A stretch of 8,050 nt of DNA, taken from the IMG/VR virus record IMGVR_UViG_2695420855_000011, positions 1-8,050 of that record; one strand, given 5' to 3'. Each line of letters begins with the position of its first letter. Positions within the stretch are counted from its first letter, which is position 1. Below, one piece after another: positions 1 to 5,376 of this stretch. The position numbers and the translations under genes are program-made. A model generated the notes under the pieces. It was not told the DNA's origin and searched no databases. It saw only the letters and a list, made by a program, of their open reading frames with translations. This DNA comes from a virus (Duplodnaviria; Heunggongvirae; Uroviricota; Caudoviricetes).

Positions 1-239
1 TCAGTTTTTAGCCAGAGCGGTGACGGCATTGTCGAGTTTTTGCCATCCGCAATAGGTGATTGCTCTGAATGCTGTTGCGCCATTCTGGAAAAGGCTAACC
101 GCTCCTGATTCGGTTTTTATTACCGCCTCATCAGTTGGAGTTATAACCGTGGCTTCAACGTTAATAATCAGCTTTTGAGCGTCTATCAGCATCATGCGAT
201 CCGCCTGTTCGCTCACAATTACCGGTATTCTCAAAAGCT
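1..239 (-). pseudogene. 3'-terminal fragment (about 79 codons) of an HK97-fold major-capsid-like gene; exact copy of 4450..4688
   Basis: Bases 1-239 are identical to 4450-4688 and diverge at 240 (a) versus 4689 (c). The minus-strand frame gives the same C-terminal 77 aa as the 308-aa ORF at 4450..5376. No 5' part or start codon; an in-frame TAG (plus 238-240) sits immediately upstream at the point of divergence. Confidence 0.6.
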
Positions 240-349
240 AAGAAAAAAGCCACCCGCATAATTTCAGATATTGACGAAAGCGCATCAGCCGCATCATCAG
301 GAACGCCGGAAAATTCTTGTTTCAGGGAATTAAAACGATCATCACGCAT
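161..349 (-). CDS. Small hypothetical protein; only the first about 36 codons (240..349) are unique sequence, the 3' end reads out of frame through the repeat copy
   Basis: ATG at 349 is preceded by a G-rich SD (minus strand GGGGAGGGGGGG then tt then ATG). The ORF crosses the 239/240 repeat boundary, so its C-terminus is probably non-native. It overlaps the end of the upstream ORF. Confidence 0.3.
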   Translation of the reverse strand: MRDDRFNSLKQEFSGVPDDAADALSSISEIMRVAFFLAFENTGNCERTGGSHDADRRSKADY

Positions 350-567
350 AACCCCCCCTCCCCATTTTCACAATCAGCAACAAGAATATTTTTAGCGTCA
401 TTCAGCGACCGCGTGGCGGTGTATCGGATACATTCCAGGGCGAACAATGTGTATTCTTCCCGTTCTTCCTTTTGTGCAAGCCCTGCTGTGCATTCAATAT
501 CAATAAGCGCATGCATCAGCGTAGTGAGCGCGGCGGCTGCTGCGTCCGGTGTGGTTTTATTGCACAT
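322..567 (-). CDS. Hypothetical 81-aa protein, translationally coupled to the Icd-like gene
   Basis: ATG at 567 is preceded by CAGGAGG with a 6-nt spacer. The start overlaps the stop of the Icd-like ORF (minus strand ...CCATGTGCAATAA). No family recognised. Confidence 0.5.
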   Translation of the reverse strand: MCNKTTPDAAAAALTTLMHALIDIECTAGLAQKEEREEYTLFALECIRYTATRSLNDAKNILVADCENGEGGLCVMIVLIP

Positions 568-1117
568 GGCACACCTCCTGACGAATACGGGCGGCGAATA
601 CAGCAACACAACCGGACGGGCAACGGCTACGTGCTTCGCGTTCCGTCCAGGCGGTTACGTGGATGATTTGATGTTCTGACGCGCCAAAGATGATAAAGCG
701 CCAGAGAAAGGCGGTTTGAGAATGTACAAGGGTAGGGATAGTAGCCATGTTGGCAGCCTCCTCAGTGTGGTTAAGATAACCGCCACCGGAAACGCCAATT
801 TCGCTGGTGGCGGACTGTACAGGGTTGGCGTAACCGGACACTGAAGAAACCGGCGCGGATTGCTCCGCCCCCGTACAGCCCACCATTGATAAGGTGTGAC
901 TATGCGGCACAAAAAAACACGCGGGGCGCGTGTTATGCGCTTCAGTTTTGCCCAGGACGCCAATCCCGGCACCCGTTTTATGAGGTGCGCGGGAATCATA
1001 GCTATTTTCGACACTGGCGATCAACTGGTTTTTTTCTCCGATATTCAGGGCCAGAAAACGCCACACAAAGGCCGTTTGTGTGTGTACAAGGTGTGGTATA
1101 TGATTTACGGCAACCAT
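557..1117 (-). CDS. Tandem (two-domain) Icd-like small protein, 186 aa as one frame; the second domain (557..748) has its own ATG and strong SD
   Basis: ATG at 1117 is preceded by AGGAG with a 5-nt spacer. Two paralogous segments share the pattern hydrophobic-H-x-Q-T-A-F-x-W-R-F (MVAVNHIPHLVHTQTAFVWRF... and MATIPTLVHSQTAFLWRF...). This resembles proteins annotated as host cell division inhibitor Icd-like in enterobacterial prophages, recalled from memory and not verified. There is no stop between the two copies. Confidence 0.45.
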   Translation of the reverse strand: MVAVNHIPHLVHTQTAFVWRFLALNIGEKNQLIASVENSYDSRAPHKTGAGIGVLGKTEAHNTRPACFFVPHSHTLSMVGCTGAEQSAPVSSVSGYANPVQSATSEIGVSGGGYLNHTEEAANMATIPTLVHSQTAFLWRFIIFGASEHQIIHVTAWTEREARSRCPSGCVAVFAARIRQEVCHVQ

Positions 1118-1146
1118 AACGGCTCCTAGTTTACGTTGTTGGTTAG

Positions 1147-1180
1147 ACGCCCCGTATGTGTTCCCAGCACTGCGGGGCGT
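1147..1180. promoter_or_regulatory. Hairpin (8-bp GC-rich stem ACGCCCCG / CGGGGCGT, 18-nt loop) in the leader region of the Icd-like operon
   Basis: Inverted repeat at 1147-1154 and 1173-1180, followed on the plus strand by a T-rich tract 1181-1190. It lies about 30 nt upstream of the Icd-like start on the minus strand. Confidence 0.3.
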
Positions 1181-1205
1181 TGATTTTTGTGTAATGGCAA
1201 GTACA

Positions 1206-1247
1206 ATGGTAATTACCATGTAGGTATAGTAATGAAGGGTAATTACC
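1206..1247. promoter_or_regulatory. Two palindromic operator-like sites sharing the core GGTAATTACC, between the divergent arc-like and icd-like genes
   Basis: A perfect 14-bp palindrome ATGGTAATTACCAT at 1206-1219 and a 10-bp palindrome GGTAATTACC at 1238-1247, the latter directly abutting the ATG of the Arc-like gene. A TATAGT -10-like hexamer lies between them at 1225-1230. Confidence 0.45.
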
Positions 1248-1421
1248 ATGTCAACACCATTAGAAAAACGTTCGCCTCCATACCAAATGCGATTACCGGA
1301 AGACTTCAGAGCGCAGCTAGAAGAAGCAGCTAAGGCCGATGGCGACACATCTTTAGCCACTTGGATTAAACGCGTTCTCCGCAAAGAATTACAGCAACGC
1401 GGCATAGAACCCAAAGGATAA
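1248..1421 (+). CDS. Arc/MetJ-type ribbon-helix-helix DNA-binding protein, 57 aa
   Basis: Own translation: MSTPLEKRSPPYQMRLPEDFRAQLEEAAKADGDTSLATWIKRVLRKELQQRGIEPKG. It shows the RHH pattern (beta-strand YQMRLP, helix A, G-D-T-S turn, helix B). It is below the length cutoff of the supplied ORF track and sits right after the palindromic operators. Confidence 0.75.
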   Translation: MSTPLEKRSPPYQMRLPEDFRAQLEEAAKADGDTSLATWIKRVLRKELQQRGIEPKG

Positions 1422-1478
1422 AAACTATCAGCGCCGTGGTGTGAGGTATTACGGCGCATTGCTATGCAGGACAACACA

Positions 1479-1652
1479 ATGACCGATAAAGAATTGACCA
1501 AAACATTATCACCGGCACGGAAAAGACGGCGCAGAAAGATAGAGCATGAATCAGAAAGATTCGCGCCATGTGCTTTTGCCCTTGAGCAATTCCTTAAAGA
1601 GTACAGGGAAAAGCGCTCATTGCAGGTATGGCAACGAACTGAACCAGACTGA
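1479..1652 (+). CDS. Small basic hypothetical protein, 57 aa, downstream of the Arc-like gene
   Basis: ATG at 1479 with AGGA 7 nt upstream. Sequence MTDKELTKTLSPARKRRRRKIEHESERF... It is followed by an intrinsic terminator. No family recognised; the alternative start at 1464 has a poorly spaced SD. Confidence 0.35.
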   Translation: MTDKELTKTLSPARKRRRRKIEHESERFAPCAFALEQFLKEYREKRSLQVWQRTEPD

Positions 1653-1747
1653 TTGCATTGCCCACCAGCCTGATAGCGGCTATCATCCCCGTGCTTATGT
1701 TTGGGATCACATACACATAAGGCGCAGCGGGTTAATTGTTCAGAAAG

Positions 1748-1774
1748 GCGGCTCCATATCGGGGCCGCTTTTTT
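1748..1774 (+). terminator. Rho-independent terminator for the arc-like operon, possibly bidirectional with alpA
   Basis: Stem GCGGCTCC / GGGGCCGC (8 bp with one G-U pair), 5-nt loop, then TTTTTT at 1769-1774. It sits between the convergent ORF ends at 1652 (+) and 1801 (-). Confidence 0.55.
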
Positions 1775-1800
1775 CGTGTTTGTCATATCTGTGATACCCG

Positions 1801-2007
1801 TTAAGCAGCCGTTCCGCGTGCTTCCTCTTCGCGTTCTTTCTGCCAGGACAACACATCATCCTCATACCATCCGCGACGGCGTAAACCAACGCGAAAACCC
1901 TGCGGAAATTCTCCGGCGTTGATCATGCTTTGCAGCGTGCTGTCTGCCTTGATGTGGATAATTTTTTTTACTTCCTGGCGAAAGATAATTTTTCTGATTG
2001 CTTCCAT
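1801..2007 (-). CDS. alpA: AlpA-family phage transcriptional regulator / excisionase-like protein, 68 aa
   Basis: Sequence ...IIFRQEVKKIIHIKADSTLQSMINAGEFPQGFRVGLRRRGWYEDDVLSWQ... fits the AlpA/Vis signature (S-T-L/I ... AGEFP ... G ... GW ... W). Located downstream of the integrase, as in CP4-57-like islands. Confidence 0.8.
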   Translation of the reverse strand: MEAIRKIIFRQEVKKIIHIKADSTLQSMINAGEFPQGFRVGLRRRGWYEDDVLSWQKEREEEARGTAA

Positions 2008-2025
2008 CGTGATTTACCTTGTGAA

Positions 2026-2042
2026 TCCGGTGTATTCCGGTG
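2026..2042. promoter_or_regulatory. Two TCCGGTG repeats phased 10 bp apart in the alpA upstream region
   Basis: TCCGGTG at 2026-2032 and 2036-2042, about 20-35 bp upstream of the alpA start on the minus strand. The same heptamer recurs upstream of int. Confidence 0.35.
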
Positions 2043-2084
2043 ACAAATACGGTAAATCATCGGATATGGGTAAAAACAGTTCCC

Positions 2085-2114
2085 ACCGTTTTTAAACGGT
2101 ATACACCGTTTTTT
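2085..2114. promoter_or_regulatory. Palindrome ACCGTTT-TT-AAACGGT plus an adjacent ACCGTTTTTT copy
   Basis: Inverted repeat arms 2085-2091 and 2094-2100, with another ACCGTTTTTT at 2105-2114, between the minus-strand terminator and the alpA start. Confidence 0.3.
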
Positions 2115-2140
2115 ATATTGATGATTTGAAATGGAATTAT

Positions 2141-2165
2141 AAAAAAAGCGGCATTTCTGCCGCTT
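2141..2165 (-). terminator. Rho-independent terminator after the int / small-ORF transcription unit
   Basis: Stem AGCGGCA / TGCCGCT (7 bp) with a 4-nt loop, preceded on the plus strand by AAAAAAA (a U-tract on the minus strand). It lies 10 bp past the stop of the 83-aa ORF. Confidence 0.6.
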
Positions 2166-2174
2166 CCAGGATTG

Positions 2175-2426
2175 TTACCGCCATTTTTTGGGCCTGCCTC
2201 CGATCTTCATAGATGCCGGACGTACGACCTTATCAATACTTACCGCCAGATTTCTGGAAGCGCCACGGGATACCAGAAAATCTACTACCTGTTTTTTTGA
2301 TGGGGCCGTCGTTCTGTCCTCCGGATCGTAGGTTGACCAAAATTCATGCTGAACCATCAGGGCCAGTTGCAGCCCGTCGCAATTGCATCTGATATTTTTT
2401 TGCATCTTAACGGTTTCATGTTTCAC
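2175..2426 (-). CDS. Hypothetical 83-aa protein between int and alpA; weak start signals
   Basis: ORF on the same strand as int with a GTG at 2426 and the first ATG at 2405, neither with a good SD. Supported mainly by position and the downstream terminator. Confidence 0.3.
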   Translation of the reverse strand: MKHETVKMQKNIRCNCDGLQLALMVQHEFWSTYDPEDRTTAPSKKQVVDFLVSRGASRNLAVSIDKVVRPASMKIGGRPKKWR

Positions 2427-2503
2427 GGCCTTGTCGTTAAATTTGATGCAATTATACGACGGTTTTACATGGTTTTCGTAGTTTTTACTGGTTTTCTGTA
2501 CAG

Positions 2504-3745
2504 CTACACGGCTCGGATACCCCTTTTACCACTGGCGAGGGTTACGCCCGTCGCCGCAGCCTCGACAAATTCGCCCCACCAGCGCATCAGCACGATGCGT
2601 TTTTCTATGTAGTTGCTCCGGTTGTATGCCCGTCTAACTTCGTTGGTGTCGACGTGGGCAAGTGCCGCCTCTATTACGTCCGGCTCGAATCCTTCCTCGT
2701 TCGCTGCTGTGCTGAATATGGCGCGTAATCCATGAGACACCAGCACGCCAGCGAATCCCATACGCCGCAATGCTGCGTTAGCTGTCTGGCTGTTCATCGG
2801 CTGCTGTGGGTCTTTCAGACTTGGGAAAACGTAATTGCGGTGGTGGCTGATTGGTTTCATGGCCTCCAGCACCGCCATAGCCTGACCGGAAAGCGGGATA
2901 ACGTGATCCCTGCGCATCTTCATGCGTCCGGCAGGTATCGTCCATTGCTTCGCGTCCAGGTTGATTTCATCCCACCGCGTTGATGACGCTTCGGCGGGAC
3001 GGGTTACGGTCAGTAACTGCCATTCAATCAGTAATCTGGTCTGCCGTTCTGTTGCCGATACTGATAAAGCCTGCATAAGCTCGGGCAGCTGTTCGGGGCG
3101 GATTGTTGGCATATGTTTTTTTACAGGTGAGGGAAACGCCTTACGCACATTCATAGCCGGATTGGCATCAATCAGCCCACTGTTGGCGGCGTAATCCATT
3201 ACCTCATTAACGCGCTGTAAAACCCGCTTGAGTGTTTCCAGGTTGCCGCGCTCCTTGATGGGGGTAAGCACTTCAACGAACCTTCGGGCGGTGAGGGTAT
3301 CTATTGGCGTGTTGCCGATGAACGGGAATACATATTTATCCAGCGAACGCCAGATGTCTTTAATCGTGTTGGGGGCCAGATTCTGGCTGATTTTCACCTG
3401 GTACCATGCCGCCGCCACATTTTCGAACGTGTTCCCTTGTCTTCGGGCCTCTGTCTCTCTTTTTTGCCTCTCGTGGTCCTGCGGGTCAGTTCCGGCACTG
3501 ATTAACGTCCTGTACTCGCTACGGCGTTTTCTGGCATCAGCCAGGGAAACATCTTCAAGCGATCCAAAACTCAGCAATATTCTTTTTTTGTCCGATGGTC
3601 GGTAGTAGGAAAATCTCCAGAGTTTTGATCCAGACGGTTTGACCAGGAGAAAAAGCCCTCCGCCGTCCTGCAGGGTGTACTCCTTTTGCGCTGGTCTGGC
3701 TGCTTTGATCTGCACTGTGGTTAATGGGTGTGTTTTTCTCGCCAT
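2504..3745 (-). CDS. int: P4-like tyrosine integrase (site-specific recombinase), 413 aa
   Basis: N-terminus MARKTHPLTTVQIKAARPAQKEYTLQDGGGLFLLVKPSGSKLWRFSYY... is typical of P4 / CP4-57 IntA-type arm-binding domains. The C-terminal part has H-x-x-R (SHGLRAIF) and the tyrosine motif (RRAYNRSNY). The ORF track starts at an upstream GTG (3763); the ATG at 3745 matching the family N-terminus is preferred. Confidence 0.9.
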   Translation of the reverse strand: MARKTHPLTTVQIKAARPAQKEYTLQDGGGLFLLVKPSGSKLWRFSYYRPSDKKRILLSFGSLEDVSLADARKRRSEYRTLISAGTDPQDHERQKRETEARRQGNTFENVAAAWYQVKISQNLAPNTIKDIWRSLDKYVFPFIGNTPIDTLTARRFVEVLTPIKERGNLETLKRVLQRVNEVMDYAANSGLIDANPAMNVRKAFPSPVKKHMPTIRPEQLPELMQALSVSATERQTRLLIEWQLLTVTRPAEASSTRWDEINLDAKQWTIPAGRMKMRRDHVIPLSGQAMAVLEAMKPISHHRNYVFPSLKDPQQPMNSQTANAALRRMGFAGVLVSHGLRAIFSTAANEEGFEPDVIEAALAHVDTNEVRRAYNRSNYIEKRIVLMRWWGEFVEAAATGVTLASGKRGIRAV

Positions 3746-3778
3746 ATGTCTATGATTCCACACGAAAAAACAGGGTTT

Positions 3779-3830
3779 TAGTTATACGGCTTTAGTTATA
3801 CGCCAGCCCGTATAACTAAACGTATAACTA
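3779..3830. repeat. Four copies of a 10-bp motif (TAGTTATACG twice direct, CGTATAACTA twice inverted) in the int leader
   Basis: Copies at 3779-3788, 3793-3802, 3809-3818 and 3821-3830, symmetric about position 3805. Located between the candidate int promoter and the int ATG. Confidence 0.45.
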
Positions 3831-3835
3831 AAAAA

Positions 3836-3876
3836 TCCGGCTGATAGCTTATAAATCCGGTGATGTTCGGTGACTA
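3836..3876 (-). promoter_or_regulatory. Candidate int promoter overlapped by phased (T)CCGGTG repeats
   Basis: On the minus strand, a -35-like TAGTCA (plus 3871-3876), a 17-bp spacer and a -10-like TATAAG (plus 3848-3853). TCCGGCT / TCCGGTG / TTCGGTG sit at 3836, 3856 and 3866, spaced 20 and 10 bp. Confidence 0.35.
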
Positions 3877-3884
3877 AAAAACAT

Positions 3885-3917
3885 AAAAAAACCCGCCAAT
3901 CAAGTGATTAGCGGGTT
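3885..3917 (-). terminator. Rho-independent terminator insulating int from upstream minus-strand transcription
   Basis: Stem AACCCGC / GCGGGTT (7 bp) with a 14-nt loop, flanked on the plus strand by AAAAAAA at 3885-3891 (a U-tract on the minus strand). Confidence 0.5.
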
Positions 3918-3929
3918 ATCCCTGTCTTA

Positions 3930-3956
3930 TCCGGTGCTTTCCGGTGATATCCGGTG
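3930..3956. repeat. Three TCCGGTG heptamers at exact 10-bp phasing
   Basis: TCCGGTG at 3930-3936, 3940-3946 and 3950-3956. Confidence 0.5.
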
Positions 3957-4039
3957 GGCGATTTGGTCGGCACGAGAGTATTTTAATTTGGCGTGTAACT
4001 GAGTGATTTTAATAAATATTCTTGATTCAACTTTTAAGC

Positions 4040-4061
4040 CGTATAACCAAACGTATAACTA
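4040..4061. repeat. Two further copies of the CGTATAAC(C/T)A motif
   Basis: CGTATAACCA at 4040-4049 and CGTATAACTA at 4052-4061, in the same orientation as the inverted copies at 3809-3830. Confidence 0.4.
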
Positions 4062-4207
4062 AAAATATTTGCTGTAAAAATGAACAATTCAAACGGTTGT
4101 TGCCCTGGGGGCTTCAATAATTCCACCGGAATTTTTTTCCGGTTAACCTTTAATCATGTTGGTGGGTCATTAAATGCCCCCTTACTCTGGTTTAAATGCC
4201 GTTTTTT

Positions 4208-4252
4208 GTCACGCCGTGTCACTGGTTGTCACTCTCCGTCACGGTATGTCAC
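4208..4252. repeat. Five GTCAC sites at exact 10-bp phasing; candidate integrase arm-type binding array
   Basis: GTCAC at 4208, 4218, 4228, 4238 and 4248 (ttGTCACgcc, gtGTCACtgg, ttGTCACtct, ccGTCACggt, atGTCACtac). The core resembles the GTCACT core of lambda Int arm-type sites. Confidence 0.5.
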
Positions 4253-4407
4253 TACTCGTTAACACCGTAACCGCTCCGGCTTCTTCCAGTGGTATGTAAT
4301 TTTTTCTTTCTCCCTATACAGTTCAACGCGGCGGATTAATCCCAGTATTTCGGCTTCTGTCATTTATCCACCTGGTCAGCTATTAAACTGCGAAAATTTC
4401 GTAATTG

Positions 4408-4435
4408 TCCCGATATGGGGATCACCATATCGGGA
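4408..4435. other. Perfect 11-bp inverted repeat (TCCCGATATGG ... CCATATCGGGA) with a 6-bp spacer, just 3' of the capsid-like gene
   Basis: Arms at 4408-4418 and 4425-4435. There is no adjacent U-tract on the minus strand, so it is not a canonical intrinsic terminator. Confidence 0.35.
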
Positions 4436-4449
4436 TTGATGCCGTTAAA

Positions 4450-5376
4450 TCAGTTTTTAGCCAGAGCGGTGACGGCATTGTCGAGTTTTTGCCATCCGCA
4501 ATAGGTGATTGCTCTGAATGCTGTTGCGCCATTCTGGAAAAGGCTAACCGCTCCTGATTCGGTTTTTATTACCGCCTCATCAGTTGGAGTTATAACCGTG
4601 GCTTCAACGTTAATAATCAGCTTTTGAGCGTCTATCAGCATCATGCGATCCGCCTGTTCGCTCACAATTACCGGTATTCTCAAAAGCTCTATCTGCCAGA
4701 ACTCAGCATTAGTAAGCTGTAAGGCGTTTTCTACGGGCAAGATTAGCGACGACGTGGCAAGCGTGTTACCGTTCGCTATGTGCTTTTTGAAAAGCTCTAT
4801 GAAGTTTTCGGCCTCATCAGCACCATTAAGCACGCCCTCAGGGGATACGCCCGCCAACTCCTGGTCACTGGAAAGAAATTTTTTATCTATTTCTTTCACC
4901 GATTCCGATGTGATCAAGTCTCTGATCGCTGAATTGGTACCAGGGGTGCTAAATTTGATTAGCTCGTTATTCAGCATCACAATAGCGCCGAGTTTGTACA
5001 GTTTTAGCGAGCTTTCGCTTACTTCTCCCCCTTTTACTGGGATTTCTTCGGCCTCTTTAAGCCATTTACTCCCCTTGCCTGATATTGATTGCAATTTTGC
5101 GCCAAAGGGAAGATTAAGCGCACTACTGATTAACTTGCCAGGTACAGACTGCGAAAAAATATACCCGCCCAGCTCTCTTGCTATCGGCTCAGCCACCAGC
5201 GACGGAAGGTTATCCGTGTTCATTCCTGCTACTACGGATTTTTCAAGGAATAACGAGACAGCCGGATCATTTCTTTTCGTCATCTCTATAGCGTCAGCAT
5301 GGCTAAATTTACACGATGCCAGCACGCTGGCGGCGCGAACTGCTGACACGCCTTTCATGTTTTTACAGATCATCAT
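4450..5376 (-). CDS. HK97-fold major capsid protein-like, 308 aa
   Basis: C-terminal half (...GVLNGADEAENF...LILPVENALQL...LRIPVIVSEQADRMMLIDAQKLIINVEATVIT...SLFQNGATAFRAITYCGW) follows the conserved pattern of HK97-type capsid proteins, by recall not by search. Strong SD (AGGAGGAGGAAG) before ATGATG; translationally coupled to the upstream small ORF. Confidence 0.55.
   Translation of the reverse strand: MMICKNMKGVSAVRAASVLASCKFSHADAIEMTKRNDPAVSLFLEKSVVAGMNTDNLPSLVAEPIARELGGYIFSQSVPGKLISSALNLPFGAKLQSISGKGSKWLKEAEEIPVKGGEVSESSLKLYKLGAIVMLNNELIKFSTPGTNSAIRDLITSESVKEIDKKFLSSDQELAGVSPEGVLNGADEAENFIELFKKHIANGNTLATSSLILPVENALQLTNAEFWQIELLRIPVIVSEQADRMMLIDAQKLIINVEATVITPTDEAVIKTESGAVSLFQNGATAFRAITYCGWQKLDNAVTALAKN

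What the first reader, a model, noticed from the sequence alone, without database searches (positions are those of the whole stretch)
161..567. Two coupled small ORFs after icd; the second acquires a foreign C-terminus at the repeat junction
The 81-aa ORF (CAGGAGG SD, start overlapping the icd-like stop) and the next ORF (G-rich SD, ATG at 349) are tightly coupled. The second ORF runs across 239/240 into the capsid-gene repeat in a different frame, so its last about 26 residues are likely non-native. That makes the 239/240 boundary a probable rearrangement scar and the ORF a probable casualty.
Basis: seen in the sequence. Interest (0 to 1): 0.4.

Follow-up and report, generated by a model that had tools for sequence, protein, structure and literature searches.

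The report
Scaffold-join artefact truncating a satellite gene
The "foreign tail" on the second small gene is real in this sequence, but it comes from a draft-assembly join (an unknown base N in the public record) and not from a genome rearrangement, and the gene is intact in the same genome.

Summary
On the minus strand an 81-aa ORF (567-322) overlaps the Icd-like stop. A 62-aa ORF (349-161) overlaps the 81-aa ORF by 28 nt and crosses 239/240 into an exact copy of the capsid gene's 3' end. Its first 36 residues are native and its last 26 are not; the native protein has 73 aa.

The "rearrangement scar" is not biological. The window equals NCBI draft contig CYDF01000001.1 (GCA_001285965.1) at every base except 240 and 7627. 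Those are the two novel junctions, and the record has a single N at each. A second contig of that assembly (3,391 bp) carries the missing 1,513 bp, including the intact 73-aa gene. It matches the sequence on both sides at 100%. Joining the pieces gives an 8,899-bp element that is 100% identical to a normally integrated copy in another E. coli genome. That element is a PICI-like phage satellite at tRNA-Pro. An attP-type junction inside the window implies a tandem copy or an excised circle, which probably misled the scaffolder.

Side result: the two ORFs are halves of one conserved module, joined at a poly-G tract. In 129 loci the tract is 7-12 nt long, giving 26% fused (~145 aa) and 74% split forms. 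The module's function is unknown.

The parts
161..349 (-). Chimeric 62-aa ORF. Codons 1-36 (349-242) are the native N-terminus of the 73-aa 'C-half' protein. Codon 37 contains the N of the source record. Codons 38-62 are an out-of-frame reading of the capsid 3' copy.
   Evidence: The record's product reads ...RVAFFXAFENTG...
240..240 (.). Scaffold join. The base is 'N' in CYDF01000001.1 and is written 'A' in the window.
   Evidence: The junction is absent from 5,426 complete E. coli genomes and from exact scans of viral, genome and metagenome contigs.
1..239 (-). Duplicate of the capsid gene's 3' end (last 77 codons plus stop). It is the inner edge of the yejO-side flanking contig.
   Evidence: 100% identical to 4450-4688. 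In L084 the duplication continues as a 720-bp stretch into the attR flank.
322..567 (-). 81-aa 'N-half' ORF. Its start overlaps the Icd-like stop. Its tail ...LCVMIVLIP* is an out-of-frame read-through past the poly-G tract.
   Evidence: phrog_5146; phrog_2512 positions 1-75; this exact protein is on 12 contigs.
352..363 (-). Poly-G tract (GGGGAGGGGGGG on the minus strand). It encodes the Gly linker and also lies where an SD for the downstream ATG would sit. Its length sets whether the two halves are fused or split.
557..748 (-). Icd-like ORF (63 aa), immediately upstream of the pair.
   Evidence: NF033153, 1.4e-15.
3746..4449 (.). attP-type junction. The integrase-upstream arm is joined to the capsid-downstream arm through the core GGCACGAGAG (3969-3978). 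Six arm-type repeats CGTATAACTAAA lie at 3777-3832 and 4040-4063.
   Evidence: No tRNA in the window. tRNA-Pro lies just beyond 8050 in L084.
7627..7627 (.). Second scaffold join ('N' in the record). It creates a 150-aa integrase-N-terminus chimera (8050-7598) and leaves a RepA fragment with no N-terminus (7628-7089).
7627..8050 (-). Duplicate of the integrase 5' end. It is the inner edge of the tRNA-Pro/yejM-side flanking contig.
   Evidence: 100% identical to 3322-3745. In L084 the duplication extends to 664 bp.

Best explanation
The window is a mis-scaffolded draft representation of one intact 8.9-kb PICI-like phage satellite. The satellite is integrated at the 3' end of tRNA-Pro, between yejM and yejO, in E. 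coli.

Its native gene order is: int, hyp, AlpA-like HTH, Ash/Icd-like, N-half, C-half, 76-aa ORF, DUF4222, RepA helicase, iterons, three small ORFs, TerS, small ORF, HK97-type capsid homologue.

The sequenced DNA also contained an attP junction, from either a tandem second copy or excised circles. The assembler therefore produced a circularly permuted internal contig (window 241-7626), a separate 3.4-kb contig holding the middle of the element, and two chromosomal flank contigs that run a few hundred bases into the element. A scaffolder placed the permuted contig between the flanks and left one N at each join (240 and 7627).

The 62-aa ORF with a foreign C-terminus is a product of that join. 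In the real genome the gene is the normal 73-aa ORF.

The two small ORFs are a conserved bipartite module of the satellite's early (regulation/replication) gene block. They are an all-helical N-half and C-half separated by a glycine linker encoded by a slippage-prone poly-G run. Depending on run length the halves are made as one ~145-aa protein or as two overlapping ORFs. In the split states the C-half is probably initiated at its own conserved ATG just after the G run.

Shown: the N's, the bridging contig, the identity to an intact copy, and the tract polymorphism. Inferred: which assembler behaviour caused the join, translation of the C-half from its own ATG, and that the halves interact. 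The biochemical function is unknown.
For: Artefact:
- The window matches L084 (GCA_001285965.1, CYDF01000001.1) over all 8,050 bases with two differences, both N in the record and both exactly at the novel junctions. These are the only N's in the 20 kb of the record fetched.
- Contig CYDF01000084.1 of the same assembly (L090) consists of 907 bp identical to the sequence up to the join, the missing 1,513 bp, and 971 bp identical to the sequence after the other join. It encodes the intact 73-aa ORF, a 76-aa ORF, DUF4222 and a full 466-aa RepA.
- The internal contig plus the missing piece makes 8,899 bp. This is 100.000% identical, without gaps, to a single integrated element in GCA_000713935.1 (L085 6590-15488).
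- The same gene order is found in O26:H11 11368.
- Neither junction occurs in 5,426 complete E. coli genomes. The 239/240 junction is also absent from the viral, genome and metagenome contig scans, and the 7626/7627 junction from the viral scan.
- GapFiller extends both gap edges inward base by base and closes a gap only if the extensions overlap. The authors of the Sanger assembly pipeline state that SSPACE and GapFiller can make false joins (PMC3446322; PMC5320598).

Module:
- A conceptual fusion of the two ORFs matches more than 100 E. coli proteins of 144-152 aa at 97-100% coverage and up to 99% identity.
- phrog_2512 covers the N-half at positions 1-75 and the C-half at positions 78-146.
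- Tract lengths in 129 independent loci: 7 nt (29), 8 (62), 9 (26), 10 (5), 11 (4), 12 (3). The C-half ORF is intact (73 or 77 aa) in 123 of 139 loci whatever the frame.
- Tract length differs within 5 of 10 haplotype groups that have identical flanks of 250 bp on each side.
- Distant relatives occur as separate N-half and C-half proteins that begin at the same Met.
Against: - I could not see the reads, so read support for or against the joins is inferred from the record only.
- The assembler and scaffolder used for CYDF01 are not known to me.
- The window shows 'A' where the record has N, and in both places 'A' is also the native next base. That fits a simple N-to-A encoding, with about a 1/16 coincidence, but I cannot prove how the window was prepared.
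- For the module, no experiment or structure supports an interaction or any function. The AF2 model is poor (pLDDT 58).
- Part of the poly-G length variation could be sequencing error in some drafts.
Confidence: 0.93

Rival explanations
1. Genuine rearrangement. The chromosome carries two complementary deletion derivatives of the satellite in tandem. One keeps int through the N-half; the other keeps the RepA C-terminus through the capsid gene. On this view 239/240 is a real deletion junction that truncated the C-half gene.
For: - The order of segments in the scaffold is internally consistent, and each unit keeps an att site.
- An 8-bp motif ACGGGAAT lies 8 bp from the 7626/7627 join in the native RepA sequence and also at the start of the integrase copy.
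Against: - Both junctions are N in the record.
- The native bridging sequence is in the same assembly at 100% identity.
- The reassembled element equals an intact copy elsewhere.
- The junctions are found nowhere else.
- It needs two independent deletions with complementary end points.
- There is no microhomology at 239/240.
Confidence: 0.03
2. Sub-question: the source of the attP junction. Either (a) the strain carries a head-to-tail tandem dimer of the intact satellite at tRNA-Pro, so that each N stands for about 4.5 kb of unplaced repeat; or (b) it carries one integrated copy, and a substantial fraction of cells held excised, replicating circles when the DNA was prepared.
For: - The attP junction is inside a contig, with an exact core GGCACGAGAG and both arms.
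- For (a): filling each N with the missing segments gives a perfect dimer.
- For (b): E. coli PICIs excise and replicate as circles and concatemers when AlpA is expressed or a helper phage is induced (PMC6092414).
Against: - For (a): no complete E. coli genome among 5,426 shows an attP-type junction for this element family.
- For (b): circles would need enough read depth to survive assembly.
- The two cannot be separated without reads. I put each at about 50% within the artefact explanation. The confidence given for this entry is the probability that either (a) or (b) is the source of the attP junction.
Confidence: 0.9
3. On the ORF pair: it is a single ~145-aa gene that is simply broken by a frameshift in this lineage. 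The 81-aa ORF and the downstream ORF would then be pseudogene fragments, not a functional coupled pair.
For: - Fused 144-152-aa versions are common.
- The break is at a homopolymer.
Against: - Split states are the majority (95 of 129 loci), and the C-half stays intact in them.
- Divergent relatives without a poly-G run are encoded as two separate proteins that end and start at the same place, so the two-gene state looks ancestral.
- In both split frames the upstream ORF stops within 28 nt of the conserved ATG.
Confidence: 0.15
4. On the ORF pair: programmed ribosomal frameshifting on the G run makes the fused protein from the split arrangement.
For: In this window a -1 slip on G GGG GGG would move the ribosome from the N-half frame into the C-half frame (sequence).
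Against: - Related loci occupy both alternative frames. Lengths 8 and 11 would need a +1 shift and lengths 9 and 12 a -1 shift, so no single conserved recoding signal fits.
- I did not look for a downstream stimulatory structure.
Confidence: 0.05

Closest known systems
False or unclosed scaffold joins in short-read draft assemblies (SSPACE/GapFiller-type greedy scaffolding and gap extension)
   Same: - A single N sits exactly at each novel junction.
- The contig edges at the joins duplicate internal sequence (664, 720, 907 and 971 bp).
- A leftover contig holds the true bridging sequence.
- The source of confusion is a repeat longer than the insert size (a tandem or circular element).
   Different: - The software used for CYDF01 was not verified here.
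- That a single N is what remains after extension without overlap is my own recollection of these tools, not a tool result.
Gram-negative phage-inducible chromosomal islands (PICIs) of E. coli, e.g. EcCICFT073 (Fillol-Salom et al. 2018, PMC6092414)
   Same: - About 9 kb, integrated at a specific site by its own tyrosine integrase.
- AlpA-type regulator downstream of int.
- Own replication protein, followed by repeats that could be an origin.
- TerS and capsid-protein homologues but no tail or lysis genes.
   Different: - The replication protein is a RepA/AAA_25 helicase preceded by DUF4222, and I did not compare it with the Pri-Rep alleles of that paper.
- The AlpA match is below Pfam's cut-off.
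- Helper dependence, induction and packaging are untested.
Homopolymeric-tract (simple-sequence-repeat) contingency loci / phase variation (e.g. Orsi et al. 2010, PMC2831843; title and abstract only)
   Same: - A poly-G run of 7-12 nt lies inside coding sequence.
- Its length varies between otherwise identical haplotypes and changes the reading frame.
   Different: - The frame change does not switch a gene off. All three frames keep both halves as intact ORFs, fused or separate.
- Each state is found on many contigs (about 150 to about 1000 per exact product).
- No within-culture switching has been shown.
PHROG families 2512 (fused), 5146 (N-half) and 24341 (C-half), all 'unknown function'
   Same: Direct profile matches with E = 6.8e-11 to 3.2e-43.
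   Different: These are sequence clusters only. No function, structure or name is attached to them.

Membership tests
Assembly/scaffolding artefact | The junction is an undetermined base or gap in the source record | tested here: met
   L084 has N at 10328 and 2941, which are window 240 and 7627. These are the only N's in the 20 kb fetched.
Assembly/scaffolding artefact | The native (unrearranged) path is present in the same assembly | tested here: met
   L090 (CYDF01000084.1) bridges the two sides with 100% identity over 907 bp and 971 bp and carries the missing 1,513 bp.
Assembly/scaffolding artefact | The pieces reassemble into a structure known to exist intact | tested here: met
   The 8,899-bp reconstruction is 100.000% identical to L085 6590-15488.
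Assembly/scaffolding artefact | No reads span the junction | not testable with these tools
Gram-negative PICI (Fillol-Salom 2018) | Own integrase and a specific attachment site | tested here: met
   - Integrase: NF007246, 6.2e-166.
- Att core GGCACGAGAG at the 3' end of tRNA-Pro.
Gram-negative PICI (Fillol-Salom 2018) | AlpA regulator | tested here: inconclusive
   - PF05930: E=0.0028, 17.9 bits, below the cut-off of 21.
- phrog_2790 'excisionase and transcriptional regulator': 2.5e-6.
- RefSeq calls it an HTH regulator.
Gram-negative PICI (Fillol-Salom 2018) | Own replication initiator with the origin just 3' of it | tested here: inconclusive
   - RepA/AAA_25 helicase of 466 aa in the intact element.
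- Five CCCCACTTTT repeats at 6899-7089, directly after its stop; 0 of 200 shuffles reach five.
- Origin function was not tested.
Gram-negative PICI (Fillol-Salom 2018) | Induction, replication and packaging depend on a helper phage | not testable with these tools
   Needs experiments.
SSR-mediated phase-variable (contingency) locus | Homopolymer in coding sequence whose length varies among near-identical sequences | tested here: met
   Lengths of 7-12 nt in 129 loci. Five of 10 identical-flank haplotype groups are polymorphic.
SSR-mediated phase-variable (contingency) locus | Reversible high-frequency ON/OFF switching within a clone, with a phenotype | not testable with these tools
   Needs deep amplicon sequencing and assays. 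The exact product of each frame state is found on many contigs (about 150 to about 1000), which argues against very fast switching.
Programmed ribosomal frameshift site | A conserved slippery site in a fixed frame relation to the downstream ORF | tested here: not met
   All three frame relations occur (66, 34 and 29 loci).

The most novel reading that the evidence does not exclude
The poly-G run between the two halves could be a contingency tract in a phage satellite. It would toggle a conserved early-operon module between a fused two-domain protein and two separate polypeptides. That would be heritable fusion/fission rather than ON/OFF switching, and it would alter how the satellite responds to helper phages. 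No such switch is described for PICIs in the papers I could search.
Probability: 0.2. Interest if true: 0.45.

Novelty: not a real feature. Interest (0 to 1): 0.1.

Why it matters
As a finding about genome rearrangement it does not matter. It is a draft-assembly artefact, and the truncated ORF should not be treated as a variant or pseudogene.

It is useful as a caution. Windows taken from scaffolded drafts with N rewritten as a base can imitate deletion scars and chimeric ORFs. That is most likely at mobile elements that exist in tandem or as excised circles.

Two pieces of real biology remain:
- The DNA of this strain contained an attP junction of an 8.9-kb PICI-like satellite, from a tandem copy or an excised circle.
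- A conserved gene pair of unknown function in these satellites is joined by a length-variable poly-G tract that fuses or splits it. This gives a cheap experimental handle on whether the two halves work together.

Tried and rejected
- Exact look-ups of the two chimeric products (62 aa and 150 aa) found nothing. The record's versions contain X, which explains this.
- Exact scans for the 239/240 junction in viral, genome and metagenome contigs found nothing. A scan for the 7626/7627 junction in viral contigs found nothing.
- I considered microhomology-mediated deletion. There is no microhomology at 239/240. An 8-bp ACGGGAAT lies near 7626/7627 but 8 bp off the join. I dropped the idea once the N's were found.
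- I considered two different satellites in tandem, because the int-side part is 99.3% identical to the O26 element and the capsid-side part 96.9%. I rejected it: the whole reconstructed element matches one intact element at 100%, so it is simply a mosaic relative to O26.
- Function of the module: no match in Pfam, NCBIfam, PADLOC or PDB sequence profiles. The AF2 model had pLDDT 58, so I ran no fold search, because matches to such a model would be meaningless. The family is small, with 40 clusters at 50% identity.
- A literature search for poly-G switching in phage satellites found nothing specific.
- A search for a written statement of the 'single N' convention gave nothing usable.

Full report
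**1. The observation**

On the minus strand the window encodes an Icd-like ORF at 748-557 (NCBIfam phage_ICD_like, E=1.4e-15). Next is an 81-aa ORF from the ATG at 567 to the stop at 322. CAGGAGG lies 6 nt upstream of that ATG, and the start overlaps the Icd-like stop by 11 nt. A 62-aa ORF then runs from the ATG at 349 to 161. It sits just after a G-rich run (363-352) and overlaps the 81-aa ORF by 28 nt.

Bases 1-239 are an exact copy of 4450-4688, the 3' end of the capsid gene, and identity ends at 239/240. The 62-aa ORF crosses that boundary in a different frame from the capsid gene.

**2. Native gene length and neighbourhood**

The best matches among 5,426 complete E. coli genomes are O26:H11 strains. 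In strain 11368 the intact element lies between tRNA-Pro/yejM and yejO. Its gene order is: int, hyp, HTH regulator, Icd-like/Ash remnants, Icd-like, an 80-aa ORF, a 73-aa ORF, a 77-aa ORF, DUF4222, RepA-family helicase, three small ORFs, TerS, a small ORF, capsid protein.

The 73-aa protein shares its first 36 residues with the window's 62-aa ORF and then differs completely.

**3. Architecture of the whole window**

I label the segments as follows:

| Segment | Window coordinates | Content |
|---|---|---|
| A | 1-239 | capsid 3' end |
| B | 240-3321 | C-half start through int 3' part |
| C | 3322-3745 | int 5' part |
| D | 3746-4449 | att junction region |
| E | 4689-7626 | capsid 5' part through RepA 3' part |

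The window reads A-B-C-D-A-E-C. The native order is A-E-X-B-C, where X is about 1.5 kb that is absent from the window (L001 9247-10757). X holds the C-half 3' end, the 77-aa ORF, DUF4222 and the RepA 5' part.

D is an attP-type junction. It consists of the int-side arm, the core GGCACGAGAG (3969-3978), and the capsid-side arm. Six arm-type repeats surround the core, and there is no tRNA in the window.

B-C-D-A-E is therefore a contiguous stretch of a circular or tandem form of the element. Only two junctions are non-native: 239/240 and 7626/7627. Neither occurs in any complete E. coli genome. The 239/240 junction is also absent from exact scans of viral, genome and metagenome contigs, and the 7626/7627 junction from the viral scan.

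**4. The source record settles it**

The exact 81-aa protein is on record on 15 contigs. One of them, NCBI GCA_001285965.1 contig CYDF01000001.1 (L084), has the window's gene order, flanked by yejL/yejM/tRNA-Pro and by yejO.

The window aligns to it over all 8,050 bases with two differences, at window 240 and 7627. At both the record has 'N'. These are the only N's in the 20 kb fetched. The record's chimeric products carry X at those codons, which explains why exact look-ups of the window's chimeras found nothing.

The same assembly contains a 3,391-bp contig, CYDF01000084.1 (L090). It is 100% identical to the 907 bp before one join and to the 971 bp after the other. Between them it carries the missing 1,513 bp, with an intact 73-aa ORF, a 76-aa ORF, DUF4222 and a full 466-aa RepA.

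Adding that piece to the internal contig gives 8,899 bp. This is 100.000% identical, without gaps, to a normally integrated single copy in GCA_000713935.1 (L085 6590-15488).

The two junctions are therefore scaffold joins, not sequenced DNA. GapFiller extends gap edges inward base by base and closes a gap only if the extensions overlap (PMC3446322). The authors of a widely used SSPACE/GapFiller pipeline note that these greedy tools can make false joins (PMC5320598). I could not verify which software made this assembly. That one N is what remains after unsuccessful closure is my own recollection.

**5. What is biologically there**

The element is an 8.9-kb satellite of the PICI kind. It has its own integrase and att site at tRNA-Pro, an AlpA-like regulator (weak Pfam match; PHROG match 2.5e-6), and Icd-like/Ash genes. 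It also has a RepA helicase followed by five CCCCACTTTT repeats, a TerS, and an HK97-type capsid homologue. It has no tail or lysis genes. This matches the feature set described for Gram-negative PICIs (PMC6092414). Helper dependence is untested.

The attP junction lies inside a contig, so the sequenced DNA held either a tandem dimer or excised circles. I cannot separate these without reads.

**6. The ORF pair**

phrog_2512 (154 positions) covers the 81-aa ORF at positions 1-75 and the native 73-aa ORF at positions 78-146. A conceptual fusion of the two matches more than 100 E. coli proteins of 144-152 aa at 97-100% coverage and up to 99% identity. These proteins read ...ADCEN-G(2-4)-VMRDDRF... 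across the joint. The joint is the poly-G run.

In 129 independent loci from IMG/VR, metagenomes and O26, the run between AAT and TTATG has these lengths:

| Run length (nt) | 7 | 8 | 9 | 10 | 11 | 12 |
|---|---|---|---|---|---|---|
| Loci | 29 | 62 | 26 | 5 | 4 | 3 |

The three frame states are:

| State | Run lengths | Loci |
|---|---|---|
| Split, N-half ends ...GYA* | 8, 11 | 66 |
| Fused, ~145 aa | 7, 10 | 34 |
| Split, N-half ends ...LCVMIVLIP* (as in this window) | 9, 12 | 29 |

- The C-half ORF read from its own ATG is intact (73 or 77 aa) in 123 of 139 loci, whatever the frame.
- Run length differs within 5 of 10 groups of loci whose flanks of 250 bp on each side are identical.
- More distant relatives that lack a poly-G run are separate N-half and C-half proteins beginning at the same Met. 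The two-gene state therefore looks ancestral, and the fusions look like secondary products of slippage in the linker.
The 'G-rich SD' is also the fusion/fission point.
- Function is unknown. There are no Pfam, NCBIfam, PADLOC or PDB matches. The AF2 model is all-helical but of low confidence (pLDDT 58), so I ran no fold search.

**7. Verdict**

The inference that the C-terminus is foreign is confirmed. The inference of a genomic rearrangement scar and a casualty gene is rejected in favour of a scaffolding artefact, with confidence about 0.93.

The interest of the finding as stated is low. The length-variable poly-G linker in a conserved satellite gene pair is a modest lead in its own right.

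Noticed in passing
window 7626/7627; ORFs 7598-8050(-) and 7089-7628(-): A second artefactual join ('N' in the record at 7627). It fuses the first 141 integrase codons to out-of-frame RepA sequence, giving a 150-aa chimera, and leaves a RepA fragment with no N-terminus.
   Followed up: yes
window 352-363 (minus strand GGGGAGGGGGGG): A poly-G tract whose length (7-12 nt in 129 related loci) decides whether the two small ORFs are fused (~145 aa) or split. All three frames are common, and the downstream half stays intact in all of them.
   Followed up: partly
window 3746-4449 (core 3969-3978): An attP-type junction with core GGCACGAGAG and six CGTATAACTAAA arm-type repeats (3777-3832 and 4040-4063). 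It implies a tandem copy or excised circles of the satellite in the sequenced DNA.
   Followed up: partly
window 6899-7089: Five exact CCCCACTTTT repeats directly 3' of the RepA stop (0 of 200 shuffles reach five). They are a candidate iteron-type replication origin, in the position where PICI origins are reported.
   Followed up: partly
window 557-1786(-) and 1248-1421(+): A 409-aa minus-strand ORF runs through the Ash/Icd-like region, which RefSeq annotates in O26 as two pseudogene fragments plus one Icd-like gene. Its N-terminal part lies antisense to a 57-aa plus-strand ORF that gene callers also report in related loci. Which of these is real was not examined.
   Followed up: no
window 5792-5829 and 6046-6071: Short GTAACTTT-type direct repeats in and just upstream of the TerS gene. 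Two overlapping copies (5792-5829) lie in the part that encodes the KVTKKVTEKVT stretch, and a third (6046-6071) lies upstream of the annotated TerS start. Their significance is unknown.
   Followed up: no
L083 and L086 (loci next to pntB): A different, larger satellite with a full head module (capsid, protease, portal, HNH, TerS, TerL). Upstream of that it encodes the identical 81-aa ORF, followed by ORFs of 73, 77, 99 (DUF4222) and 466 (AAA_25) aa. This suggests the block is exchanged between satellite types.
   Followed up: no
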